Assembly: GCA_012455605.1 (NCBI GenBank)
Contig: GCA_012455605.1_3618.1
Strand: one strand, 5' to 3'
Length of the DNA: 64,000 nt
Source of the DNA: a phage
Shown: in pieces, positions 5,111 through 60,989 of the stretch
Numbering within the stretch: position 1 is the stretch's first letter
How the letters are laid out: each line of letters starts with the position of its first letter
Notes under the pieces: model-generated
Databases searched by the model: none
What the model was told of the DNA's origin: nothing
The model's input: the letters and a program-made list of their open reading frames with translations, nothing else
Position numbers and translations under genes: made by a program

Positions 5111-7540
5111 ATGAGCATGTGGTCGTTCGATTTTGAGTCATCCGGTTTGCTGGAAGACCCAGATCTTTATTATCACTGCGGTCTGTTTAAAGAGTTGAAT
5201 AAGAACCGTTTTATGCTGTTCCTTCCTCTAAATGACCGCACACACTACTCCGAGGAGGATATAGAAAAGGCTAAGAACTTCATTCTGGCAAAGAAAACTC
5301 TTTATAAAGATTTTGAAGTTCGCATAGCAGATTTTTCGGAGTTGGAAGGTTGGCTTACAGGAAATTCTGACTGGTCACCAACAGCTTTGAACTGCCATAA
5401 CTGCTACAGTTATGACTTTATGCTGATGGAAAGATTATCCGGTATTCATTTTGATATGTTCCGTGATCCTAAATGTATGGGGACTATCAACGACCACCAG
5501 GTTAACCTGTTCGATACGTTGGCAATGAGCCGAATCTTGTGGCCTGATCGCCCTTTACCGAAAGGTTGTCCGGACTCTGTATTCAACCCGGTTACTAAAA
5601 AAATGCAGCCTGTTGGTCCTCACGGCCTTATGGCATGGGGCTACGCTCTTGGTAACCAGAAAGTTCAAATTGATGACTGGCGCGATCTTCCGTTGTGGAA
5701 GTATGTGGATCGTGTATTCGAGGACGTTATCATCCAGGAGCTGCTCTGGAAAGAGCTGGTAGCGGAATCAAAAGGTGTATTCTACGGCAAATCTGACATG
5801 CAGAACTTTATGTACGATCCTGCCAAAGAGAAGCCGAAAGGATTCAAGAAGATCACCTGGAAGAACGCATTACGTCGAGGCATGCTGCAGCACTTCCTGA
5901 TGGAGCTGCAGGCCCGTCAGGGCGTATACTTCGACATAGATGGAGCTATTGCTTTACGTGACCGTTGCGATGCGTGGATGAAAGAAATCGCTGATCGTGT
6001 TGAACCACAACTGCCTTTAAAAGAACTGTCAATGTCTCAGCGGCCCAAGTTCCCTGAAAAGCCGTTTAACCAAGACGGGACAATCTCTAATAATGGTTGG
6101 AAATGGTTAAAAGATAAGCTTGGCTATCCTGTAGACATGAGCGCTTTAGAGTTCAAAGCCCCGCCTAAGAGAGCATTTACCTCTACAGGAGATGTCAGCA
6201 AGATGGGGATAAAATGGTGTGAAGAGATGGGATGCAAAGACCCCGATAAGATGGCTGATTTCTTGAGAGGCTATATTAAGGGCACTTCCACACCACACCC
6301 TTTGCCTAAAGAGTTGATGGATCAGGCAATAAGTGATCTACAGCAGAAGCGAATGCCGGACTGCAAGATACCTATGAAAATCAGCAACCAGGACGACATT
6401 AAGCGATACCTGATCAGTGCTGGCTGGCTTCCGACAATGTGGAGAACTAAGGATGTAACTAAAGACAGCAAGAAGAAAGCTTTACCTGATGCAGATGTTG
6501 ATGCACGAGTATATGCATATATGGACGAGCTTTTGGAGTCAGAGTATTGTGACCTAATTATCAACTTCTGGAACAAAACTGATGCTAAGTTCCAGACAAC
6601 CGTGCACAAGTTCCGAAGCTTTCCTAACTCCGAAAGGATTAAAAAGGAAGTATTCGGGAAAATACGTAGAAAAGCCAGGGCACTTATTACTTCTCCGCAA
6701 CTGAAAGATACGTTTGGACACCTATGCCCAAATCTTGAAAAATTGAACGGAGAGATGGCTAAAGATATCGTCTTGTGGTTATCATTGCGAAACCGCAGAT
6801 CGGTCCTTGATCCAATCAAGGAGGATAAGGTTGATACTGGTCTTCTTAATCACCCACGTTTGAAGATTGACCATAAGCTTCCTGCTAAAAGCTCTGGATT
6901 AACAAACACTTCCAGACAGAAACACAGTATTTGTGCAAACATGCCTAAACCATCTCCTAAAGTAGTTATGGGTAAAGAGATGCGTAGTCTGTGGGGTGTT
7001 CCTCCAGGATACTTTGAGATCGGTATTGACGGGTCCAACTTAGAGCAGCTTATCGGGGCTTGGGGTGCCTTTGAGTTCGACAACGGCCTGTATTACGATG
7101 TTGTAAGTAACGGAGACGCACACCAAAACAATGCTGAGGCATATACAAAAGTAGCAGGCAGAGAGGTGTCTCGTAACGACGGTAAACCTATCACGTATGG
7201 GGTTATGTATGGGGCACAAAAAGATAAAGTTGCAGATATGCTGGACATCTCTCCAGAGTTGGGACAAAGGGTAATCGATGCACTCTGGGATGCCAACCCT
7301 GGTCTTAAGGGGCGTAAAGAAGATCTGGAGAAATTCTGGGAAGCAACGGGTAAGAAGTTTATCTACTCTTTTGATGGTCATGCTATCTGGACCCGATCTA
7401 AACACTCTTTACTTAATGCATACCAACAAAATGGCGGCGCATCGTTGTGTGACTTAGTTGGGATACTCATGCACCATCAAATGGTGAAGCGTGGGTGGTA
7501 CGATGAAGGTGTTCGTCGTATTATTTATTACCATAAATAA
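5111..7540 (+). CDS. DNA polymerase, family A, with 3'-5' exonuclease domain
   Basis: Exo I FDFESSG, Exo II YSYDF; motif A-like IDGSNLEQL; motif B-like RNDGKPITYGVMYGAQ (T7 Pol-like). Confidence 0.8.
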   Translation: MSMWSFDFESSGLLEDPDLYYHCGLFKELNKNRFMLFLPLNDRTHYSEEDIEKAKNFILAKKTLYKDFEVRIADFSELEGWLTGNSDWSPTALNCHNCYSYDFMLMERLSGIHFDMFRDPKCMGTINDHQVNLFDTLAMSRILWPDRPLPKGCPDSVFNPVTKKMQPVGPHGLMAWGYALGNQKVQIDDWRDLPLWKYVDRVFEDVIIQELLWKELVAESKGVFYGKSDMQNFMYDPAKEKPKGFKKITWKNALRRGMLQHFLMELQARQGVYFDIDGAIALRDRCDAWMKEIADRVEPQLPLKELSMSQRPKFPEKPFNQDGTISNNGWKWLKDKLGYPVDMSALEFKAPPKRAFTSTGDVSKMGIKWCEEMGCKDPDKMADFLRGYIKGTSTPHPLPKELMDQAISDLQQKRMPDCKIPMKISNQDDIKRYLISAGWLPTMWRTKDVTKDSKKKALPDADVDARVYAYMDELLESEYCDLIINFWNKTDAKFQTTVHKFRSFPNSERIKKEVFGKIRRKARALITSPQLKDTFGHLCPNLEKLNGEMAKDIVLWLSLRNRRSVLDPIKEDKVDTGLLNHPRLKIDHKLPAKSSGLTNTSRQKHSICANMPKPSPKVVMGKEMRSLWGVPPGYFEIGIDGSNLEQLIGAWGAFEFDNGLYYDVVSNGDAHQNNAEAYTKVAGREVSRNDGKPITYGVMYGAQKDKVADMLDISPELGQRVIDALWDANPGLKGRKEDLEKFWEATGKKFIYSFDGHAIWTRSKHSLLNAYQQNGGASLCDLVGILMHHQMVKRGWYDEGVRRIIYYHK

Positions 7541-7674
7541 CATTGTGGCTTCGTGCAGTGATGCACGTCGAAAACCTCTTTAATTGACGGGAAGGCTAAG
7601 TTGACTTTTACACCTAAACATGGTAAAAGCTCAATATGCTAATCCGCAGCGAAGACTAAAGGGGTGTAGTTAAA

Positions 7675-8181
7675 ATGGCTAGATCAGTTGATTATCACGG
7701 ATATACCGTGTTTGATGATGGAACAATACCTTTATCGAAACGTGATCATACAACAATGTTTTGTTTTGATAATGGTCGAGGTTACCTTTGCGTAACCATG
7801 TTCATCGAAGGGAAGCAGTGCACAAAAGGTGTCCACCACTTGGTTGCCGAATGCTTTGTATCAAACCCTGATCCTGAAAGGCTCACATGGGTGAACCATA
7901 AGGACGGAAACAAATACAACAATGCATACTGGAACCTTGAATGGACCACCCCTGGTGGAAATATCAAACACGCTTATGATAATGACCTCAGAGTAAGGCC
8001 AGTCGGTGAGTATAATGCCAACGCTGTGCTGACCGAGGATGAGGTAACGGAGATTTGCGAGCTGTTACAGAGTGGTCTACGACAATGCGAGATTAGGGAT
8101 CTTGGGTACCCTTATGAGACGGTCAGAGCCATAAAGCAAAGAAGACAGTGGAAACATATCTCTAAAAACTACACCTGGTAG
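7675..8181 (+). CDS. HNH homing endonuclease (HNH_3/NUMOD-like)
   Basis: VNHKDGNKYNNAYWNLEW HNH motif; N-terminal YHGYTVFDDG; sits directly after the polymerase gene. Confidence 0.75.
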   Translation: MARSVDYHGYTVFDDGTIPLSKRDHTTMFCFDNGRGYLCVTMFIEGKQCTKGVHHLVAECFVSNPDPERLTWVNHKDGNKYNNAYWNLEWTTPGGNIKHAYDNDLRVRPVGEYNANAVLTEDEVTEICELLQSGLRQCEIRDLGYPYETVRAIKQRRQWKHISKNYTW

Positions 8182-21954: not shown

Positions 21955-22008
21955 AAAACTCAAGGGGGCAAGACGTTTGCCCCCACACAAAACAAAGAGG
22001 AAAACATC

Positions 22009-27298: not shown

Positions 27299-27562
27299 AT
27301 GAAACGTCTTGATCAGCTCAAACTAGTTCAGTACATGGCCTACAAAGTTCTTGAAGTCCAAAAAGGTAGCAAAAAAGAGGTTTGCGAGAAAGCATATAAG
27401 ATCTTTACCCGTAAAAAAGATGATTGGATGTTACGCCAGACCAAAAAAGCCGATATCCTGGGGTACCTGGAAGAAGAGATCCGACTTGAAGAGCAAGAAG
27501 AGATCCGCCGCAGTGAAGCAGATTATCAGGCAGCTTGGGAAAACTGGATGAGTAACAAATAA
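27299..27562 (+). CDS. hypothetical protein
   Basis: 87 aa charged protein. Confidence 0.45.
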   Translation: MKRLDQLKLVQYMAYKVLEVQKGSKKEVCEKAYKIFTRKKDDWMLRQTKKADILGYLEEEIRLEEQEEIRRSEADYQAAWENWMSNK

Positions 27563-27628
27563 TACAACAAGTTGCACGATCAGGGGGCAATAAAGCCCCT
27601 TGATCACATAAAAATTATGCTATCCTTA

Positions 27629-27657
27629 TTGACAAGGATCGGCAGTTTTGCTATATT
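27629..27657 (+). promoter_or_regulatory. sigma70-like promoter (TTGACA-N17-TATATT)
   Basis: Consensus hexamers. Confidence 0.5.
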
Positions 27658-27706
27658 CTTTTTTGAAGGGAAGTTGTAAAAAAATTAACTAAGAGGTAAA
27701 AACACC

Positions 27707-28126
27707 ATGAACATTAAATCTAATAATCCGGCATATAGCTTTGATAACGCTTTTTGTCACGGCCCGGCGGCGAAAGGATTCGAAATCGATGGTAAACTAA
27801 TTATTGTCAATGTTGACGGGGAAGAGGTTGCAGTATATCCGGTGGCAGACGTAAAAAGCCGTTTACAATGCCGCATTGATGTTACCGCCTATCAGCTTGA
27901 TCCGGTCCGCATAGTTGCCCTGGTCCTGGAAGAAGAAATTAAAGCCATGCACCATAGCAACAGGTTTATTGGTGACGCCCAGGATAATATGAAGGTATGC
28001 CGCCATAAAGTTAATGAAGTGCTTAAAGAATATGGCTTTAAAGATCTGATGATCAAACGTGAGGAAAAATTCCGCTACCGTAACGACCTGGCAAATCGAA
28101 TCTATGAAATATACGAATCATTATAA
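27707..28126 (+). CDS. hypothetical protein
   Basis: 139 aa; last plus-strand gene before the convergent region. Confidence 0.5.
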   Translation: MNIKSNNPAYSFDNAFCHGPAAKGFEIDGKLIIVNVDGEEVAVYPVADVKSRLQCRIDVTAYQLDPVRIVALVLEEEIKAMHHSNRFIGDAQDNMKVCRHKVNEVLKEYGFKDLMIKREEKFRYRNDLANRIYEIYESL

Positions 28127-28144
28127 TTTCTTAACTAAACTATC

Positions 28145-28172
28145 AGGGGCTTTAAAAGGCCCCTTTCTTTTT
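28145..28172 (+). terminator. rho-independent terminator (AGGGGC-TTTAAAAG-GCCCCT then TTCTTTTTG)
   Basis: Stem-loop and T-tract closing the plus-strand block. Confidence 0.6.
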
Positions 28173-28559
28173 GTCTGTATTTCTCCTACCACAAACGGCC
28201 CAGCCTGGCAAGTGGAATAATTGACTAGCCATCAATCCCACACACTGTACAAACATACATGTAAAATAACTATTGCATAATTTTTCATTGTGTGGTAGCA
28301 GGGCCATTTTTACCCGTTTTCTCTCTCAAAATTGCACGTAATGCCGCTATTGCACAAAATTTAACCTGATGCACATCTTCAATATCTTGTCAACAACTAA
28401 AAATCTTTATAAGTCATACACTTACACACTCACAAAAGCGTGTTCTACGTGAAAAATCGAGTATAACTATAGCCGCCAGATCTCAGAATTTACGTACGCT
28501 CACCATTCTATAGTCTGCTAAGTATTTATTCCAACCATAGAATAACGGAATAGTCAATA

Positions 28560-29440
28560 CCTGCATAAAATAATTATTCGTGTAAACTGCATAACATAAA
28601 TCAGCTTATGTGTCAACATTCTTGGTAAACAGTCCGAAATTGTAATGGTAAGTTATAATAAACAGAGAAATCTTTAGTCGTCTAATGTTTACTGTACATA
28701 ACTATACTGACTGGAATCATTAGATGACTAAGAGAAAGATAAGAAATCATTAACAATGCAATTGTTTTATTCGTAACAATAAGGCAACTATGCAAACGAA
28801 TGGCATGGCGCGACGGAGTCGCGACATAATATAAAAGCAGTAACCATCACCCCCGTGATAGTTTGTCTGCAAACTATTAATCAGATCATAGTTGCCTTGT
28901 ATTTAGTTAATCATGACATAACAAGCAAGGCAACTATAGATCTTCTAATAGTTGCCCTGCTTTTATATTATGTCATCTATTGTAAACAAGTTAATTATTG
29001 TCATGCAAACGAATGTCATGGCTTATCATTTTTGAGTAAACAATCTATGCGTGAACAGTTAGCTATGTAAACTATTAGACATGTAAACTATTGAGAATGT
29101 AAACAGTAAAGGGAGTGAATAGTGATAGCGTAAACAGTCAGGCATGTCAATTATGTTCAGTGTCACCATTATGTCATATTGTGTCACAGTATGCCCAGTA
29201 TGTCAGACAAGTTTTTCTCCTCTTTGTCAAGTGCTGCATGAAAAATTTACAATCTGGTATGGTAGCATTTTTGCGGCCCTGTTTACATTCAGTTGTGTAT
29301 GTATAAGCCTTGTTGTGTGGGCGTTTAGACGTCTAGACGGTTGGAAGTCTACAGGTCAATATCTAATCTATTGGTTGCTAACTATATCCCACACAAATAG
29401 TAAGAAATATAATTGTTATGTGTGTAAACTGTAACTCATG
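28560..29440. repeat. AT-rich iteron-like region (TGTAAAC units, AAGGCAACTAT inverted repeats)
   Basis: At least 10 (A)TGTAAAC(A/T) units including three tandem at 29063-29108; AAGGCAACTAT forward at 28781 and 28927, reverse at 28888 and 28948; GCAAACGAATG(G/T)CATGG twice. Confidence 0.6.
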
Positions 29441-29699
29441 TTATCAATCCCTGTATGGATCGCCAGTGGTGCGCATAATGGGTATTATGTTAAATTGCCC
29501 GTAATGATAACAGTTCTCACAATGATAGGTATTCTCATTCAATCCCACAAGATAGGTTGCAAATGTTGTGCCACTGTGTGAACGGCCTCACCTATTAATT
29601 TGCCACACTGCCCCGATATTTGAGAATTGTTATAAGAATGAGAATGATTCCCATTTCGTCCGCCTGGCAGCACTCCAGTCGCTACCGCTCATAACAGGG

Positions 29700-30260
29700 C
29701 AGAACTAGACCCTCTTCAGATATTTCTGGCTGACTCTTCAGGTCTGTGTGGGAAAAGCCAACCTCTCCGGCGGGAAGGGGGGGTCAATTAAAAAATTTAC
29801 GGGGTATATGAAGCGCTCTTCAGGTAAGGCATGTATTATGGGATGAAACCCTCTTCAGGCAATGATATTTGTGGGTGTGATATTTGCTGGAAAGCCAGAT
29901 ATGACGGGACTCCCGGCGGGGCAGGGGTAGTACAGGAAGGGAAAATATGGGGATGTAGTTGGGGAAATTGATCAGACAGGTGGAGTATAGTATATGTTAC
30001 AAGTATGTTAAATATGGATGGTGAATATCTATAGGATTTGTGTGTAAAATCAAAGACTTAAGTGGTGTTGTGGTATTTTCTATAAATAATTCAAGTTTAA
30101 TAGGGAATATTTGTCAGAAAGGTAGGTTCAGGTTATTTAAAGTTGTATTTCAGATGCATGTTTACAGAAGCAGGTAACCCCCCTCCCCCTTCGGCTACCA
30201 TTCACCTTTTCCTCTAACTGGTACTTAAACACTTATTCAGACTCTTCAGGTTATCACCCA
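29700..30260. repeat. CTCTTCAG(G) repeat cluster with G-rich inverted repeats
   Basis: Copies at 29712, 29735, 29816, 29851, 30242 (a sixth at 30890); CGGCGGGAAGGGGGGG near 29770 versus CCCCCCTCCCCCTTCGGC near 30178. Confidence 0.55.
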
Positions 30261-30601
30261 TATATCATATGGCAGTGACTGGTGTCCTCAGGCCCCTCTT
30301 TCGTCACCCGTCCGCTTCGCCATGCTAATGCCATAGCCAGTGGTTCGGTTGTTCACCCTGTTCACTCAGGTGTATCTCCATACCCCTTCAAACCGAAGAG
30401 AACAGAAAACCCGAATTACTCGGTAAAAGAAAAGAGAAGAACTTAATTTTATCAGGATAGGCAAGAATGTCAAGGCATGACTGCTCACTAAACAAGCAAA
30501 CAGTCATGTGTGGGAGGTAAGTGATTGTGGTGGTAGGAAATTTAGTTGAAAGATGTGTTATAGGTGCTCCCAGCACTTTTAGCCGGGCAGCTAGTTGTGT
30601 G

Positions 30602-30817
30602 TCAGTCCAGCGGTTCATCCCCTACTTCACTGAAATCGATGTTCATGGTCTCCTCCCAACCATCGATCTCAGCACAAGAGTGGAGATCTTTAGGACTTAC
30701 TCCCAAAGCCTCAGCAACAGCGTCTATATTTAACACCTCTGGCAGGTATGATTCATCGAATTCAAGGTAAATCAGGCCACGAGTGTTGTCAGCTCCACCA
30801 AATATTTCTATCTTCAT
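30602..30817 (-). CDS. hypothetical acidic protein
   Basis: 71 aa; last gene of the minus-strand block. Confidence 0.4.
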   Translation of the reverse strand: MKIEIFGGADNTRGLIYLEFDESYLPEVLNIDAVAEALGVSPKDLHSCAEIDGWEETMNIDFSEVGDEPLD

Positions 30818-30938
30818 AAAATCTCCTCTGGAAATGAGAGTGTGAACTGGGTTTTATACGTTCCAATACGTTGGAATTATGCACGTTTGCCTCTTCAGGC
30901 CATGCTTTAGCATGAGGAACCTGTGTGGGCTCGGTGCT

Positions 30939-31352
30939 TCATAGTCTACCACCTCTGAACTCTTCGTGCTCCGGCATGATAGAGAACCAGATATCTACGA
31001 TGTCTTCCCACGTTAGGTCATCAGCCTCAGGATCTACCTGGAGCGAAGATGGAGAATATTCAGAATCGAAGTTTTCCTCTTTCACTGGCTCAGCCAAGGG
31101 ACATATAGTCACTCCTTTGGATGTCTCTTCAGATGCATGTGTGTTTATCATGTTCCACCCGTGAGTATTCCGGCAACAGCCGCTATGGACGTAATGATCA
31201 TCAGGATCACCACTAAAACTTCGGACAATGTTCTCATTGTGTATCCTATATTCTCTAAACGATGTGTGGATAATATCACGAGGGCGGTAATGTGTCAACA
31301 GAAACGCCGCGAGGGTTTGGTTAAAATCCGAGCGTATGGTGATTTGGGTCAA
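30939..31352 (-). CDS. hypothetical protein
   Basis: 137 aa. Confidence 0.45.
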   Translation of the reverse strand: MTQITIRSDFNQTLAAFLLTHYRPRDIIHTSFREYRIHNENIVRSFSGDPDDHYVHSGCCRNTHGWNMINTHASEETSKGVTICPLAEPVKEENFDSEYSPSSLQVDPEADDLTWEDIVDIWFSIMPEHEEFRGGRL

Positions 31353-31511
31353 AACGGACGTGCGTTCTCGCTACGCTCGAAAGAGAGACTTGTTTGTAGA
31401 AAGCTCTTAAACGCTCTGTAACGAGATTAACTACCAGAGGTATGCAATCGTGCACCAGATAAAGAAAAGGACGCCATAGAGCGTCCTAGGTGTCTTAAAT
31501 TTGATATTTTG

Positions 31512-31823
31512 CTATACCCACGAGGGCTTATCAAGGTTGGAGTAGCTGAAAGGTGTCAAAAGGTGACTGTCAAAATCTCTCAAACTATCCAGATCTTTTT
31601 CCTCGTCCTGACACCATCTGTGCCTACATTTATTGTTGTAGTGCATAGAATGCATAGCGTTCTGCAACTTAACAGGCACAAGTGATTCGGGAGTAGATAG
31701 TATTGTTGGGTATGCCAGAACCACTTCAAACAGTGGAAACACATCGAAACTAAAGTCTACCTCTGCAGAGGTTGATGGCATGTAGGAGTATTTAGCCGCC
31801 TTTGTAGACATAATCCACCTCAC
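31512..31823 (-). CDS. hypothetical protein
   Basis: 103 aa. Confidence 0.4.
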   Translation of the reverse strand: MRWIMSTKAAKYSYMPSTSAEVDFSFDVFPLFEVVLAYPTILSTPESLVPVKLQNAMHSMHYNNKCRHRWCQDEEKDLDSLRDFDSHLLTPFSYSNLDKPSWV

Positions 31824-32146
31824 ACAGGTTTGATAATACCTTTACCGAATAACTCTTCGTATCTAATCTTATCCGGATCCCACTCCTGGATAATTTCGAA
31901 GACAATATCCAACCCTGGGATAATCACTTCTCCAGTGTCAAGTTTGGCAAGAACAAAACCAGAAGGTTGAATGGTTTCCCAGTTGCGACGATTGGAATAG
32001 AAGACCTCGAAAATATCACCGACCTTGATCTGTTGATCAAGATGTTCAAGGTTCTCTTTCATGTAGACGCAGCGTATTTTTCGTGCAGGCCATAGACCAC
32101 CTGCATCACGTTCATTCAATTCTTTTACAGTGATCGGTATACCCAT
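31820..32146 (-). CDS. hypothetical protein
   Basis: 108 aa; start/stop overlap with the downstream gene. Confidence 0.45.
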   Translation of the reverse strand: MGIPITVKELNERDAGGLWPARKIRCVYMKENLEHLDQQIKVGDIFEVFYSNRRNWETIQPSGFVLAKLDTGEVIIPGLDIVFEIIQEWDPDKIRYEELFGKGIIKPV

Positions 32147-39355: not shown

Positions 39356-39826
39356 CTACTTAAATAGTAGTTCAAAATAGTGCAAAATTAACAGAAGTTG
39401 AACTACACCTAGTGCAACGGCGAGTATGTTAATCTTAGAATCGAAAAACTTCTTAACTTTTACTCTAAAAGGTTCCTTAATGTCCTTTACGATCCTATCT
39501 ATAGATGACCTCATATCTCTGATTACCATCCTGAACATTAAAGACGGATGCTCCCCCATCTCTGTAACGGAATCGAAAACATACTCTCTTCGGTCATAAG
39601 GGCCGCCAGCTCTGCGTATTAACCTCTCCACAGAGACCTCGAACGTCACACCTGTAACGTAATCATCTATAACAAGTCGTGACGGGTCTTTACCTTTACT
39701 ATCAAGAGGTATCAAAGTTATCTTTCCAGATTTTGTTAAAATTTCCCCTTTTTCAAGCAAGGTGTACCAATGCTCTCTGCCAAGACTGTTGAGGCACGTT
39801 TTTACATATTTAACAAACATCGTCAC
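39356..39826 (-). CDS. hypothetical protein with C-terminal hydrophobic segment
   Basis: 156 aa; ends ILAVALGVVQLLLILHYF. Confidence 0.45.
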   Translation of the reverse strand: MTMFVKYVKTCLNSLGREHWYTLLEKGEILTKSGKITLIPLDSKGKDPSRLVIDDYVTGVTFEVSVERLIRRAGGPYDRREYVFDSVTEMGEHPSLMFRMVIRDMRSSIDRIVKDIKEPFRVKVKKFFDSKINILAVALGVVQLLLILHYFELLFK

Positions 39827-57873: not shown

Positions 57874-58095
57874 TTAGTAAAACTGAAGAATGTCTTTTAA
57901 AGCGAAGTCACGATATTCGCCCTTGTCTACATCGAAGGCACGCATCAACCACTGCTCTTCTTTATGATACTCTGTAGAACCAAACCATAAATTAGGCTCA
58001 GTAACGCAGCGATCTGCAACAACACCTTTCCAGTTACGGTATTTCATCCTGATCAGGACCGAGTCGCAAGGATTGAATACCTTTTTCATCCCCAT
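57874..58095 (-). CDS. hypothetical protein
   Basis: 73 aa. Confidence 0.4.
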   Translation of the reverse strand: MGMKKVFNPCDSVLIRMKYRNWKGVVADRCVTEPNLWFGSTEYHKEEQWLMRAFDVDKGEYRDFALKDILQFY

Positions 58096-58639
58096 AGAAA
58101 TCTCTCTCCTCAGTTTTCTTTATAAACTCCTGCATGTAGAACTCAATAGCCTCATGCTTGGTGCACTCCGGATCAATGACAAGATTGAGATCTGATTCTG
58201 CTCGTGCAATAATCGTAGCTTTAGAGCATCGCCTCAAGAACTTTGTCATATCATCTCTGTAGTTTTTGTGGAGCGGGAAGTCGCTGTAGTCTTTCTCCAA
58301 ATAGTCAGCAATCCGGCGCAACGCCTCTGATAAACTGCAATCTGTATACTCGTTACAGTATTTCATCCAGTATTTAAGCACATACCCCTCAAAGGTATTA
58401 GTGCATTGAGACAAAACACCCCTGCAACGACCAGTCAGATGATCATGATCTAAACAAGGCTTACGAAGTGGCTCGCACAAGATCGGATCAAGACCATCCT
58501 GCTCCTCTGACAATTCTTTTCGAAAGTTGGCTATGTCCTTAGAATCTTTTAACCACCCGTTATGAACTGGGGCTTTGACAGCTTTCTTTCTTATTTTACG
58601 CTTTGCGATAATCCCTCCAGATGAGCCCTGCCTATCCAA
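58034..58639 (-). CDS. recombination endonuclease VII-like
   Basis: CLDHDHLTGRCRGVLSQCTN matches the Endo VII zinc/HxDH core. Confidence 0.7.
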   Translation of the reverse strand: MDRQGSSGGIIAKRKIRKKAVKAPVHNGWLKDSKDIANFRKELSEEQDGLDPILCEPLRKPCLDHDHLTGRCRGVLSQCTNTFEGYVLKYWMKYCNEYTDCSLSEALRRIADYLEKDYSDFPLHKNYRDDMTKFLRRCSKATIIARAESDLNLVIDPECTKHEAIEFYMQEFIKKTEERDFYGDEKGIQSLRLGPDQDEIP

Positions 58640-59220
58640 TAAGCATCTGCGAGATCGGCCTTACCTTGTACCAAATTGATCCCGTCTAGGAACCCAGGTT
58701 CAGATACTTCGCAGGCCTTAACCATCAACTTTTTATCCATTGTAACAGGTTTCTTCACAGTATGCTCTTTACCTGTCTTTTTGTCAAGCTTTTTCTTCTC
58801 CTCAAAAGCAAGTTCTTCAGGAAGATGACTACGAGCAAACTTTTTGGCAGTTGTTGGTGTCACTGTGTGGACCTTAAACAGGCCGTCATTTTCACAATCA
58901 GCTAAGGCATCCCAAAGCATAATTTCAAGACCGTAAAACAACCCAGCCAGTTCACGTGTGGCATCCCCGCGTGATCCAAAGGAAAGCCCTTCCATAACCA
59001 CGGTGTCAACGTGATGCGTGTGGATATAATATCTGACCTGTTTGCAGATCCAGTCAATACGCTCAGCAGCTGTTGCAAAAGAAACCGTCCCTGGTTTCTT
59101 CTCTTTTGCAGATGAGCTTTGAGTTCGTAACACAACCTTATGAACAGGCTTTCCATCGTCCCATACAACGCAAGCTGTGTGTGTCAACGACTGGTCTATG
59201 GATAATAGACGCTCTCTCAT
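58591..59220 (-). CDS. RuvC-like Holliday junction resolvase
   Basis: LSIDQSLTHTACVVWD (first Asp), VVMEG (Glu), DAYWIGRAHLE (C-terminal Asp) in RuvC-like order. Confidence 0.55.
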   Translation of the reverse strand: MRERLLSIDQSLTHTACVVWDDGKPVHKVVLRTQSSSAKEKKPGTVSFATAAERIDWICKQVRYYIHTHHVDTVVMEGLSFGSRGDATRELAGLFYGLEIMLWDALADCENDGLFKVHTVTPTTAKKFARSHLPEELAFEEKKKLDKKTGKEHTVKKPVTMDKKLMVKACEVSEPGFLDGINLVQGKADLADAYWIGRAHLEGLSQSVK

Positions 59221-59552
59221 GCTTCCTCATCCTCCTCTCCTTCATCAGGAGCATAAGCCTTATCTTTGAACAAGACGAGAGAGCAAAGCTTAACATCTGT
59301 TTCCACACTGGTGAACATGCATAACCGCTCGCCCTCAATCAACTCACAATCCTCTTTTAAAACAGCAGACCATACACGGTCATCTGCGTAATCATCTGTG
59401 TACAGGATGTATGAAATAGTGTCATCTTCATACAACCGCCACATACCTGTGGCAACAATAAATGTATTTTTTGTTTTAATGGTCCCTGTTGTATGATCAT
59501 CCTCAAAAACAGCTTCCATAATTGCACTATCTACAGAATTTTTAGTCATCAA
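59217..59552 (-). CDS. hypothetical protein
   Basis: 111 aa. Confidence 0.45.
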   Translation of the reverse strand: MMTKNSVDSAIMEAVFEDDHTTGTIKTKNTFIVATGMWRLYEDDTISYILYTDDYADDRVWSAVLKEDCELIEGERLCMFTSVETDVKLCSLVLFKDKAYAPDEGEEDEEA

Positions 59553-60688
59553 ATTGCTCCAACATTTCTAAGAACGTTAACAAGTTTTGTTTGATCATTG
59601 AATGTTCGCTTCATATACAAACAGTCAAAAATTATACTCATCCATTGACCTACGGAAATTCTACGATCAACACCATTGAAGTCAGTATACTTAACAACAC
59701 CTTTCGGGAACCACTTCTTGTACTGATCAATAATAGCCACCCACATCTCCTTTGGAGTGCTGCACTGAGACAGTAGGTAGAATGCTGAGGCATCCCCGAA
59801 CTTACCCTTACCGATAAGTCCTTGATACGGCTTGATGTTGTCAGCAGAGTCACCACACAGCATTTGGTATCCGAAGAACAGCATTCCGTAACCACCAACC
59901 TCTCCATTAGGCTTCATGAAGATGTTACCCATACCGTTATCGATCAGCATAGGGGTTTCCCTTACAAAATCTCCCTTATCGTTTCGCATGGGATCGAACA
60001 CAAGCCCCGGTAGTGTTCTTTGGTCCTTATCAATAGAGATAATAAACTTGTTGAACTTACCTGTTTTTTGGTAGTGGTTCCAACCTTCAAATTGCTGGAT
60101 AGCTAACCAGTCATCAGCCTCTATACCGTTGATCACTTGAGCATTATACTGCTTTTGGAGATACTGTCTTGCATCTCCAAGCAGCAGTGGTCGAAGAGTA
60201 TTGTTACGGTTGGCTTTATATCTTTCCGGCATGGGAAGATCTAGTCTGAAATTACCTGTGCCCCCAAGTACCCCCACGCACCGATCTTCCGGAATACCGA
60301 GATAATTAAGGACTGCATTAGCTTTACACTTAATTGTGTGCAAGCAGTTCTCTACAGGATCAGGGGTTTGGATATCCAAGACATCGAAATCTTCCCGTGT
60401 CCACGGAATAAACTCCTTGCCAGCCTTTTTACATGCAGCTTCACGGTTGGTATTCTCAGCTTTTAACCAACCACCAACGGTGTTCTTCTGCCGCCCCCAG
60501 AACTCTGTTCGTGTTTTAAACATCTTCTTACGTCCGGAGGCTTTGTGTGTTACCTCAATTGTCCTTTTTTCACAACTTGCTGCAGCTTGATATGCAACCT
60601 GATCGAAGTCATAATAAACTATAGCGTCAGGTTCAAGAAGATCAGCCAGACAATCTATGGACTCAATAAGTGGATATTCTCTACTCAA
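59549..60688 (-). CDS. 5'-3' exonuclease / flap endonuclease (FEN family)
   Basis: YKANR, GIEADD and H3TH GDSADNIKPYQGLIGKG motifs. Confidence 0.85.
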   Translation of the reverse strand: MSREYPLIESIDCLADLLEPDAIVYYDFDQVAYQAAASCEKRTIEVTHKASGRKKMFKTRTEFWGRQKNTVGGWLKAENTNREAACKKAGKEFIPWTREDFDVLDIQTPDPVENCLHTIKCKANAVLNYLGIPEDRCVGVLGGTGNFRLDLPMPERYKANRNNTLRPLLLGDARQYLQKQYNAQVINGIEADDWLAIQQFEGWNHYQKTGKFNKFIISIDKDQRTLPGLVFDPMRNDKGDFVRETPMLIDNGMGNIFMKPNGEVGGYGMLFFGYQMLCGDSADNIKPYQGLIGKGKFGDASAFYLLSQCSTPKEMWVAIIDQYKKWFPKGVVKYTDFNGVDRRISVGQWMSIIFDCLYMKRTFNDQTKLVNVLRNVGAI

Positions 60689-60989
60689 AGACCCTCCTGT
60701 TAGTTATTCTGCAAGATGGTTGGATGCTGTAATGGAATGCATCATCACTTTCTGCAATAAGTGACTCAACATCCCAATACTTTTCAAAAAGGAACGGATT
60801 AGAACCCCAGTGATGAGTTATTTTCATCAAGGAGTCTGGTATCAGATAACCAGAGATCTTAACTACATCGCCAGGTTGAATTGTGTTTTCATGAAGGTTG
60901 CTTGCCTTCTTCAGGATCATACCTTTATGATTCTCGTTTGCATACAACTGGACAATATCTTTATCTTCAACAATAAAAATTTTAAGCAT
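60681..60989 (-). CDS. hypothetical protein
   Basis: 102 aa. Confidence 0.45.
   Translation of the reverse strand: MLKIFIVEDKDIVQLYANENHKGMILKKASNLHENTIQPGDVVKISGYLIPDSLMKITHHWGSNPFLFEKYWDVESLIAESDDAFHYSIQPSCRITNRRVFE

What the first reader, a model, noticed from the sequence alone, without database searches (positions are those of the whole stretch)
29700..30900. Cluster of six CTCTTCAG(G) motifs flanked by G-rich inverted repeats
CTCTTCAG(G) occurs at 29712, 29735, 29816, 29851, 30242 and 30890, all in the same orientation, within non-coding DNA. The cluster lies between near-inverted G-rich segments (CGGCGGGAAGGGGGGG near 29770 and CCCCCCTCCCCCTTCGGC near 30178). This may be a recognition array for a site-specific protein such as a terminase small subunit (pac site), a recombinase or a regulator.
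Basis: seen in the sequence. Interest (0 to 1): 0.55.

Follow-up and report, generated by a model that had tools for sequence, protein, structure and literature searches.

The report
Oriented repeat array beside phage genome end
The CTCTTCAGG cluster is a real, strongly conserved, one-directional array of short DNA signals lying just inside one physical end of rV5-like phage genomes, next to a terminal repeat that carries a copy of the host's chromosome-resolution (dif) site, so it is most likely a DNA-packaging or end-processing signal like the repeats that flank the ends of phage T7.

Summary
The window is an rV5-like coliphage (Vequintavirus). The motif cluster is real. There are 7 same-strand copies in 1.4 kb. 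It is the most clustered 8-mer in the window, and no simulation matched it. It lies in the gene-free stretch where two gene arms converge. The core C[T/A/C]CTT[C/T]AGG is kept, always in this orientation, in close relatives, in a divergent metagenomic clade, and in Septuagintavirus-like, Seunavirus, Certrevirus and Avunavirus phages whose flanks no longer align.

The decisive context is the genome end. A close relative (EdH4) was deposited with an exact 459-bp direct terminal repeat that maps to window 29206-29664. The array begins 48-70 bp outside its right boundary. T7 has the same layout: a 160-bp terminal repeat flanked by same-strand arrays of CCTAAAG. That heptamer is the reverse complement of the CTTTAGG variant found in several genera here.

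Best reading (about 0.4): a terminal-repeat-flanking packaging or concatemer-processing signal.

Found in passing: the terminal repeat contains a near-perfect host dif site (both Xer arms identical, central spacer changed). This is conserved across the whole subfamily and was not found described in the library searched.

The parts
29712..29719 (+). Motif copy 1 (CTCTTCAGa). This is the least conserved copy, lying in a variable segment just outside the terminal-repeat boundary.
   Evidence: Position. It is degenerate in L003 and bov10K2. It lies 48 bp from the boundary at 29664.
29734..29742 (+). Motif copy 2 (CTCTTCAGG), followed 2 nt later by TGTGTGGG.
   Evidence: It is kept in close relatives and L003. 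The same ggctgaCTCTTCAGGtc context occurs in Cronobacter phage GAP31.
29816..29824 (+). Motif copy 3 (CTCTTCAGG).
   Evidence: It is present in most close relatives.
29851..29859 (+). Motif copy 4 (CTCTTCAGG), next to the paired GATATTTG boxes. Its orthologue is recognisable in clade B and in Septuagintavirus-like phages.
   Evidence: (invariant in 16 sequences).
30242..30250 (+). Motif copy 5 (CTCTTCAGG), inside the candidate minus-strand RNA gene. It sits in an unpaired, length-variable segment.
   Evidence: The 26-nt segment carrying it is absent in clade-B members L023, L028, L029 and L033.
30891..30899 (+). Motif copy 6 (CTCTTCAGG), 74 nt upstream of the start codon of the 71-aa minus-strand gene.
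   Evidence: A copy in the same position is found in clade B (L004 10224, L029 8827).
31125..31132 (+). Motif copy 7 (CTCTTCAGa), inside an ORF and present in only some relatives.
29206..29664 (.). Equivalent of the 459-bp direct terminal repeat, that is, the physical genome ends or concatemer junction of close relatives.
   Evidence: The EdH4 record has exactly identical 459-bp ends, which map to window 29664 and 29206. Korf et al. 2019 report '458 bp' terminal redundancies. The bov10K2 record opens at 29665. The end of the ECP2303 record extrapolates to 29206 (H46). The block is 94-96% conserved between hypervariable flanks.
29468..29495 (+). Mimic of the host dif (XerC/XerD) site, GGTGCGCATAA-TGGGTA-TTATGTTAAAT, inside the terminal repeat.
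29042..29137 (+). A different repeat family, (A)TGTAAAC / GTRAACAG with 16-bp spacing, just outside the other (left) boundary of the terminal repeat.
   Evidence: family D1; 6 of 8 window hits lie in the non-coding region. The stretch is hypervariable among relatives.
29768..29783 (+). G-run 1 (CGGCGGGAAGGGGGGG). A second G-run lies at 29913-29927. Similar GGCGGG(N)AGG runs recur in other lineages.
   Evidence: (family D18).
29864..29886 (+). Paired GATATTTG boxes that accompany copy 4. The pair is conserved in clade B and in Septuagintavirus-like phages.
29964..30163 (.). AT-rich stretch (about 30% G+C). It is the least stable 200-bp duplex in the whole window.
30176..30438 (-). Candidate structured non-coding RNA of about 260 nt.
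   Evidence: 98-99% conserved. The promoter is conserved in clade B. The consensus fold is 98% paired with 8 compensated pairs, against 0-2 in slid controls. No Rfam family matches.
30446..30473 (-). Sigma-70 promoter with an extended -10 element (TTGACA-16-TGaTAAAAT) driving that RNA.

Best explanation
The CTCTTCAGG copies form an oriented array of short recognition sites. The core is C[T/A/C]CTT[C/T]AGG, within a weak context of about 20 bp. The array sits on the unique-sequence side of one boundary of the phage's short direct terminal repeat. In the replicating concatemer it therefore lies immediately beside the junction at which genomes are cut and packaged.

The most likely function is to mark the genome end. 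The sites would bind the packaging machinery (small terminase subunit or an accessory end-processing factor). Their single polarity would tell the motor where the junction is and in which direction to cut and package. This is the role proposed for the CCTAAAG arrays (SRL/SRR) that flank the T7 terminal repeat.

Shown here: the array is non-random. It is under selection across at least five genera. It has a fixed polarity and a fixed side relative to the Xer site. It adjoins the terminal-repeat boundary of a close relative. T7 has the same layout with a near-identical heptamer.

Inferred, not shown: that terminase is the reader of the motif, and that virion ends in this particular phage lie at 29206 and 29664.
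For: Conservation with diverged flanks is seen at several depths. All 14 close relatives and L003 keep 4-6 + copies and none on the other strand. The clade-B metagenomic phages share only about 75-80% patches but keep 3-7 + copies. Septuagintavirus-like LTH01 and A7_1 carry CTCTTTAGG or CTCTTCAGG. PVP-SE1 has five copies (CACTTCAGG x3, CTCTTTAGG, CTCTTCAGG). CB7 has two CTCTTTAGG copies 21 bp apart. GAP31 has CTCTTCAGG, CCCTTCAGG and CACTTCAGG. Av-05 has CCTTCAGAGAT x3.

Polarity is strict. Within 3 kb of the Xer site in 7 phages of 5 genera there are 33 copies on the XerD-arm side, all on the + strand. There are 0 on the opposite strand there, and only 2 on the other side, both flipped.

Genome-end evidence: Korf et al. 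2019 state that vequintaviruses EdH4 and HdK5 have 458-bp terminal redundancies. The EdH4 record has exact 459-bp direct repeats at its ends, mapping to window 29664 and 29206. The bov10K2 record opens at 29665. The end of the ECP2303 record extrapolates to 29206. CheckV flagged a terminal repeat in another vequintavirus. The array starts 48-70 bp from that boundary.

T7 reference: the 160-bp terminal repeat is followed by 8 exact same-strand CCTAAAG copies at 175-338 and preceded by copies at 39671 and 39700 (one reads CCTAAAGAG). None lie on the other strand. CCTAAAG(AG) is the reverse complement of CTCTTTAGG.
Against: PhageTerm analyses by others called vequintaviruses 'circular permutated' or headful/pac with partial permutation. 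Fixed ends are therefore not agreed upon.

The terminal-repeat evidence is one sentence in one paper plus the structure and endpoints of deposited records. No reads were analysed here.

The large terminase gene is about 45 kb away in rV5, and no small subunit was identified.

Copies at +578, +1227 and +1461 bp from the boundary are far for a packaging signal.

The array is on one side of the repeat only and absent from the repeat itself, unlike T7.

The function of the T7 heptamer arrays is, to my knowledge, not firmly established, so the analogy transfers an architecture rather than a proven mechanism.
Confidence: 0.4

Rival explanations
1. Polar element functionally coupled to the Xer/dif site. 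The oriented sites would load or orient a translocase towards the XerD arm (KOPS/FtsK logic). Alternatively they would bind a protein that blocks replication forks or RNA polymerase in one direction (Tus-Ter or roadblock logic) at the point where the two gene arms and the GC skew converge.
For: The array is always on the XerD-arm side and always has the same polarity. The only two copies on the other side are flipped. The first copy lies 244-406 bp from the Xer site in 6 of 7 phages. The region is the convergence point of transcription and the cumulative GC-skew maximum. No intrinsic terminators were reported there by the rV5 authors.
Against: The motif is not KOPS (GGGNAGGG) and not a Ter core. 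KOPS-like G-runs nearby point the wrong way. Clade B keeps the array although its Xer-like site has a badly diverged right arm. The distance to the Xer site varies up to 930 bp (CB7). No candidate binding protein is conserved next to the region. Linkage to the Xer site is equally explained if both simply sit at the genome end.
Confidence: 0.15
2. Iteron-like binding sites of a replication initiator at a transcription-primed origin. The arrangement would be a promoter, a structured RNA ending in a G-run, an easily melted AT-rich DNA stretch, and then the binding sites, as at T7/T4 origins or ColE1.
For: There is a strong conserved extended -10 promoter and a conserved RNA of about 260 nt. The least stable 200 bp of the window lies directly downstream of it. 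Other iteron-like repeats are present. Clade B has two perfect DnaA boxes and tandem iterons. The phage has a T7-like polymerase and primase-helicase.
Against: The region is where the gene arms converge, so forks leaving it would meet transcription head-on. The RNA and the AT-rich module were found only in Vequintavirus (clades A and B), whereas the motif is subfamily-wide. Spacing is irregular. The putative initiator-like gp075 is genus-restricted and lies 40 kb away. The window has no DnaA-box cluster.
Confidence: 0.12
3. RNA-level or transcription signal. On the minus strand the motif reads CCUGAAGAG at the end of the right gene arm, as the loop or stem of small hairpins, terminators or processing sites. 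Alternatively, on the plus strand it is an upstream box of promoters for antisense transcripts.
For: In GAP31 one copy forms GGAGCC-UGAAGA-GGCUCC followed by a U-run, which is a canonical minus-strand terminator (my reading of the sequence). Several copies are followed by hairpins. TAnnnT hexamers occur 8-10 nt downstream on the + strand in 7 of 23 flank clusters, against about 1.7 expected. The motif has a partial resemblance to boxA (CGCTCTTCA at 29813; boxA consensus recalled from memory).
Against: No stem or spacing is shared by all copies. The terminator scan found none at the window's copies. No Rfam family matches, including hammerhead, despite CUGAAGAG resembling CUGANGA. The copy inside the RNA gene is dispensable in part of clade B. 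Distances to -10-like elements are not conserved between orthologous copies.
Confidence: 0.1
4. No function. The copies would be leftovers of local duplications or of codon-driven word bias.
For: The four copies elsewhere in the window and those in rV5 coding DNA follow sense-strand purine bias. Some copies sit at indel boundaries.
Against: The exact core is retained with unalignable flanks across five genera, with strict polarity. The cluster statistics argue against chance.
Confidence: 0.02

Closest known systems
Short-repeat arrays (SRL/SRR, heptamer CCTAAAG) flanking the 160-bp terminal repeat of phage T7
   Same: Both have a short exact direct terminal repeat with same-strand arrays of a 7-9-bp word directly adjoining it on the unique side. 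The word is nearly the same: T7 CCTAAAG(AG) against CCTGAAGAG or CCTAAAGAG here, read on the strand running towards the right end. Spacing is irregular, and variants occur among copies.
   Different: T7 has arrays on both sides and three copies inside the repeat. Here the array is on one side only, none lies inside the repeat, and a different repeat (TGTAAAC) lies on the other side. The phages are unrelated in morphology and size (podovirus of 40 kb against myovirus of about 137 kb). Here the repeat also carries a Xer site.
Phage P1 pac site with the nearby loxP/Cre cyclisation site
   Same: In both, a packaging-start signal made of repeated short oligomers lies next to a site-specific recombination site that ends up duplicated at the ends of virion DNA and can circularise it (P1 facts recalled from memory).
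   Different: P1 packages by the headful mechanism and encodes its own recombinase. Its pac site lies inside the terminase gene and its hexamers are palindromic. Here the recombinase would be the host's XerCD, the site lies in every terminal repeat, and the repeats are asymmetric.
Bacterial dif/XerCD with KOPS and Ter polar sequences; plasmid cer/psi sites
   Same: A 28-bp Xer site with 11-bp arms and a 6-bp spacer lies at the convergence of skew and transcription, with polar short motifs pointing at it.
   Different: The motif is neither KOPS nor Ter. There are no cer/psi-type accessory sequences abutting the XerC arm. The replicon is a virulent phage, and no prophage copy was found in 5,426 E. 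coli genomes.
Iterons and DnaA boxes of plasmid and phage origins
   Same: Both are asymmetric 9-bp cores repeated in one orientation in non-coding DNA near an AT-rich stretch.
   Different: Here there is no adjacent initiator gene, no helical phasing, and the location is a convergence point and genome end.

Membership tests
T7-type terminal-repeat-flanking short-repeat array (packaging / end-processing signal) | The genome has a short, exact direct terminal repeat with fixed ends. | tested here: inconclusive
   The EdH4 record has 459-bp exact repeats at both ends, and a paper states this. Endpoints of other records coincide with the boundaries. However, PhageTerm reports by others say permuted or headful. 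The window itself is a continuous sequence, so its own ends cannot be seen.
T7-type terminal-repeat-flanking short-repeat array (packaging / end-processing signal) | A same-orientation array of a short word lies directly adjoining the repeat on the unique side. | tested here: met
   Copies lie at +48, +70, +152 and +187 bp from the boundary at 29664, all on the + strand. T7 copies lie 15-180 bp from its repeat.
T7-type terminal-repeat-flanking short-repeat array (packaging / end-processing signal) | The heptamer is CCTAAAG. | tested here: inconclusive
   The window has CCTGAAG (one transition away). CB7, LTH01 and PVP-SE1 have exactly CCTAAAG(AG).
T7-type terminal-repeat-flanking short-repeat array (packaging / end-processing signal) | Arrays lie on both sides of the repeat and copies lie within it. 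| tested here: not met
   There are no copies in 29206-29664 or to the left of it. The left flank has a different repeat.
T7-type terminal-repeat-flanking short-repeat array (packaging / end-processing signal) | The array is required in cis for concatemer cutting or packaging and is bound by terminase. | not testable with these tools
   This needs genetics, EMSA or end mapping.
Headful pac site (P22 / SPP1 / P1 type) | The site lies in or next to the small-terminase gene. | tested here: not met
   The large terminase gene is at rV5 58027-60872, about 45 kb from the array.
Headful pac site (P22 / SPP1 / P1 type) | Virion DNA is circularly permuted with a packaging series starting at the site. 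| not testable with these tools
   The literature is contradictory.
Xer recombination core site (dif / cer / psi); considered for the CTCTTCAGG motif itself | Two 11-bp XerC/XerD arms are separated by 6-8 bp. | tested here: not met
   The motif has no such structure. The true Xer site is the separate element at 29468-29495.
KOPS (FtsK-orienting polar sequence) | The sequence is GGGNAGGG, skewed genome-wide and switching orientation at dif. | tested here: not met
   The word is different and the array is local rather than genome-wide. Only the polarity towards the Xer site is shared.
Iteron-type or DnaA-dependent replication origin | Phased direct repeats lie next to an initiator gene, with a DnaA-box cluster and an AT-rich unwinding element. 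| tested here: inconclusive
   An AT-rich element is present. There is no phasing, no adjacent initiator and no DnaA-box cluster in the window. DnaA boxes occur only in clade B.
Known RNA families (including hammerhead ribozyme and boxA/nut) | A match to a curated covariance model, or the defining core plus helices. | tested here: not met
   An Rfam E-value search of 27500-32000 on both strands gave only chance-level hits.

The most novel reading that the evidence does not exclude
CCTRAAG-type oriented arrays may be a genome-end signal shared by unrelated enterobacterial phages with short terminal repeats (T7-like podoviruses and the whole rV5-like myovirus subfamily). The signal would be read by a common factor, either a host protein or a convergent terminase domain. 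In rV5-like phages it would work together with a host-dif mimic placed inside each terminal repeat. Host XerCD would then circularise the injected linear genome by recombining its two ends. This would be a P1 Cre-lox-like step run entirely on a hijacked host enzyme in a strictly virulent phage.
Probability: 0.2. Interest if true: 0.85.

Novelty: new variant of a known kind. Interest (0 to 1): 0.68.

Why it matters
The 2.4-kb 'non-coding' box of rV5 has been unexplained since the genome paper. This work assigns it a structure: terminal repeat, flanking repeat arrays, a Xer site and a candidate RNA.

If the array is the end-recognition signal, it gives a testable packaging signal for a phage subfamily widely used in therapy and biocontrol. 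It also shows where these genomes should be opened for annotation and engineering. Finally, it links these phages to the old and still unresolved question of what the T7 CCTAAAG arrays do.

The dif mimic inside the terminal repeat would extend exploitation of the host Xer system from small filamentous, microvirus and tailless integrating elements to large virulent tailed phages. The purpose would also differ: circularisation or decatenation rather than integration.

Tried and rejected
- **Hammerhead ribozyme.** CUGAAGAG resembles CUGANGA, but Rfam gave no hit and no helices fit.
- **boxA/nut.** Only the CUCUU pentamer is shared, and the location at operon ends is wrong.
- **Lambda boxB-like CCU-GAAG-AGG mini-hairpins.** These form for only a minority of copies.
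- **Anticodon-loop mimic of tRNA-Leu(CAG).** No consistent stems were found.
- **Sigma-32, sigma-E, sigma-28, MotA-box-type or sigma-70 -35 roles.** Spacings to -10-like hexamers are inconsistent. There is only a weak TAnnnT enrichment.
- **KOPS.** Rejected.
- **DnaA boxes.** Rejected.
- **Tus-Ter similarity of the TGTAAAC repeats.** The core is not matched.
- **'DNA translocase FtsK' annotation of the 87-aa neighbour in APCEc02.** Pfam, PDB and PHROGs give no support.
- **The 71-aa neighbour with an HTH-like segment as the binder.** It is only 40% identical in clade B, with a changed putative recognition helix. The AlphaFold model had pLDDT 52 and was unusable. It has no homologue at this position in other genera.
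- **gp075 'replication initiation protein' as the binder.** It is genus-restricted.
- **Prophage or plasmid carriage.** Only the 46-nt dif match was found in 5,426 E. coli genomes.
- **Assembly break points as pac evidence.** I first attributed them to homopolymers or variable repeats. They were later explained by the terminal-repeat boundaries.
- **One literature search and two others.** These returned mostly noise.

Full report
**Identity and setting.**
The 2.6 kb around the finding is 90-96% identical to 121-122 phage records. Nearly all are Escherichia phages of the genus Vequintavirus: rV5, FV3, FFH2, Murica, LL12. Plus-strand ORFs run from 1 to 28126. Minus-strand ORFs run from 64000 down to 30602. 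Both converge on an ORF-poor stretch at 28170-30600. Carefully annotated relatives leave this stretch empty. The rV5 genome paper drew it as a grey 'non-coding' box, noted that the expected terminators were not found there, and placed a GC-skew change in it. The window's cumulative GC skew peaks there. No tRNA and no Rfam family is present.

**The observation.**
CTCTTCAG is on the + strand at 29712, 29734, 29816, 29851, 30242, 30891 and also 31125.
- The window holds 12 hits against 2.33 expected.
- CTCTTCAGG gives 8 hits against 0.6 expected.
- In a scan of every 8-mer on both strands, this is the most clustered word in the window. None of 60 simulations reached five copies in 540 bp.
- In the complete rV5 genome 6 of 17 and 5 of 9 occurrences lie in 1.4 kb. 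All coding occurrences follow sense-strand purine bias.

The G-rich segments are real, but only two copies lie between them.

**Selection on the motif.**
- All 14 close relatives and a more distant IMG/VR phage (L003) keep 4-6 copies on the + strand and none on the other.
- A divergent metagenomic clade ('clade B': L004, L021, L023, L028, L029, L032, L036, L038) aligns to the window only in 75-80% patches. It still carries 3-7 CTCTTCAGG copies, all +.
- The core recurs in the syntenic gene-free region of Septuagintavirus-like phages (CTCTTTAGG or CTCTTCAGG).
- It also recurs in Seunavirus PVP-SE1 (five copies in 390 bp), GAP31, Certrevirus CB7 (two copies 21 bp apart) and, as CCTTCAGAGAT, Avunavirus Av-05.
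- From 23 flank clusters the extended consensus is roughly T-W-n-G-n-n-n-G-n-CTCTTYAGG-Y-n-A.
- One copy lies in a 26-nt segment that is present or absent among clade-B phages. Sequences directly after some copies differ between close relatives. The copies therefore behave as autonomous DNA sites rather than parts of a larger folded unit.

**A host dif mimic next door.**
Window 29468-29495 reads GGTGCGCATAA-TGGGTA-TTATGTTAAAT.
- It matches E. coli dif with both 11-bp arms identical. The only two differences are in the 6-bp spacer.
- A 421-nt query around it hits exactly one place in 5,274 of 5,426 E. coli genomes, over 46 nt only. No genome carries the phage flanks.
- The site is invariant in close relatives.
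- Dif-like sites occur in unannotated DNA of Cronobacter, Salmonella, Pectobacterium, Enterobacter and other phages of the same subfamily.
- In four further genera examined, the site lies in the same kind of convergent gene-free region in the same orientation.
- Phage spacers are CGTGTA, GGTGTA, GTTGTA, TGGGTA and TAGGTA, against host TGTATA.
- Clade B has only a degenerate version.
- Within 3 kb of the Xer site in seven phages, 33 motif copies lie on the XerD-arm side, all on the + strand. None is in the other orientation there. The only two copies on the other side are flipped.

**The genome end.**
- Korf et al. [quoted passage not shown]
- The EdH4 record begins and ends with an exact 459-bp direct repeat. 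Its first base maps to window 29664 and its last to 29206.
- The dif mimic is inside this repeat (one search shows two places in EdH4).
- Independent records open or close at the same points: bov10K2 at 29665, and ECP2303 by extrapolation at 29206.
- The block 29206-29664 is 94-96% conserved between hypervariable flanks.
- The CTCTTCAGG array thus starts 48-70 bp outside one boundary. A different repeat family (TGTAAAC/GTRAACAG, 29042-29137) lies just outside the other boundary.

**Comparison with T7.**
In the T7 reference, the 160-bp terminal repeat is followed by eight exact same-strand CCTAAAG copies (175-338). It is preceded by copies at 39671 and 39700, one reading CCTAAAGAG. None lies on the other strand. 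Read towards the right genome end, the array here is CCTGAAGAG. In CB7, LTH01 and PVP-SE1 it is CCTAAAGAG. The architecture, and nearly the word itself, are the same.

**Interpretation.**
I therefore rank first (about 0.4) a terminal-repeat-flanking signal for recognising and processing the concatemer junction during packaging.

Weaknesses of this reading:
- Other groups' PhageTerm calls were 'permuted' or 'headful'.
- The large terminase gene is 45 kb away.
- Copies extend up to 1.4 kb from the boundary.
- The array is one-sided.
- The function of the T7 arrays is, as far as I know, itself unproven.

Rivals:
- A polar element working with the Xer site (translocase guide, fork or RNA-polymerase barrier): 0.15.
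- Origin iterons: 0.12. This is supported by a conserved promoter-RNA-AT-rich module. It is weakened because that module is genus-limited and the site is a convergence point.
- RNA or promoter signals: 0.10.
- Chance: 0.02.

**What could not be found.**
No binding protein was identified.
- Neighbouring small proteins have no known family.
- They are not conserved between genera.
- The only HTH-like neighbour is 40% identical in clade B and gave an unusable model.

No paper in the library links dif or Xer with virulent tailed phages or with rV5-like phages.

Noticed in passing
window 29468-29495 (+), inside 29206-29664: This is a near-perfect mimic of the host dif site. Both XerC and XerD arms are identical to E. 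coli dif and the spacer is TGGGTA instead of TGTATA. It lies inside the 459-bp terminal repeat, so every virion DNA would carry two direct copies. It is conserved by position and orientation in all Vequintavirinae genera examined, always with an NNNGTA spacer unlike the host's. This suggests XerCD-mediated circularisation or Topo IV recruitment while avoiding integration. No paper in the library describes it.
   Followed up: partly
window 30176-30473 (-): This is the most conserved block of the region (98-99%, above the flanking genes). A strong extended -10 promoter, conserved in clade B with different bases, drives a structured RNA of about 260 nt. Its 5' CU-rich leader pairs with a 3' G-run. 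The fold shows 8 compensated pairs and 98% pairing against about 55% in slid controls. No Rfam family matches. Its core CTGAGTGAACAGnGTGAACAnCC contains two GTGAACA repeats 10 nt apart, so DNA-level constraint is also possible.
   Followed up: partly
window 29964-30163: This is the least stable 200-bp duplex of the 64-kb window (about 30% G+C). It lies directly downstream of the RNA's 3' end and contains a T4-late-promoter-like TATAAATA. The layout is origin-like (promoter, RNA, unwinding element).
   Followed up: partly
window 28237, 29314, 29388, 29745, 30507, 30922 and six other sites: TGTGTGGG occurs 12 times against 2.0 expected, and its strand follows the sense strand of each arm. It often lies 2-33 nt after a CTCTTCAGG copy, and also does so in PVP-SE1, GAP31, CB7 and clade B. 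At 21982 and 26934 it is the 3' half of a 5'-UTR hairpin.
   Followed up: partly
window 29042-29200 and 28774-28974: These are hypervariable stretches of TGTAAAC/GTRAACAG repeats with 16-bp spacing, ATGTCA repeats, and 18-19-nt inverted repeats. They lie just outside the left boundary of the terminal repeat. Among relatives only about 60% of columns are conserved.
   Followed up: partly
L029 (OLOT01000016.1, oriented) about 5980-6460, 5620-5760, 6880-6940, 7260-7990: The clade-B version of the region carries two perfect DnaA boxes (TGTGGATAA, 22 nt apart), three tandem GTGTGGAAACAGYTGCAGG iterons, GC-rich palindromic MITE-like inserts, and an HNH endonuclease ORF inserted right after a motif copy. 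The region is an insertion hot spot.
   Followed up: no
window 27707-28126 (+): The 139-aa protein that ends the left arm is about 90% identical in Phapecoctavirus phages (phAPEC8, ESCO13; L005). Those phages lack this non-coding region at that position. This suggests recent exchange between subfamilies.
   Followed up: no
window 29772, 29919 (+) and 30181 (-): FtsK KOPS words (GGGNAGGG) lie inside the G-runs and converge on the AT-rich stretch rather than on the dif mimic. The window holds 10 against 4.7 expected.
   Followed up: no
MZ311864.1 (Escherichia phage LNA4), record 147137-147165 of 147613: A dif-like site lies about 450 bp from the end of this record. The phage is not a Vequintavirus (genus not checked). 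This hints that a Xer site close to the genome end extends beyond Vequintavirus.
   Followed up: no
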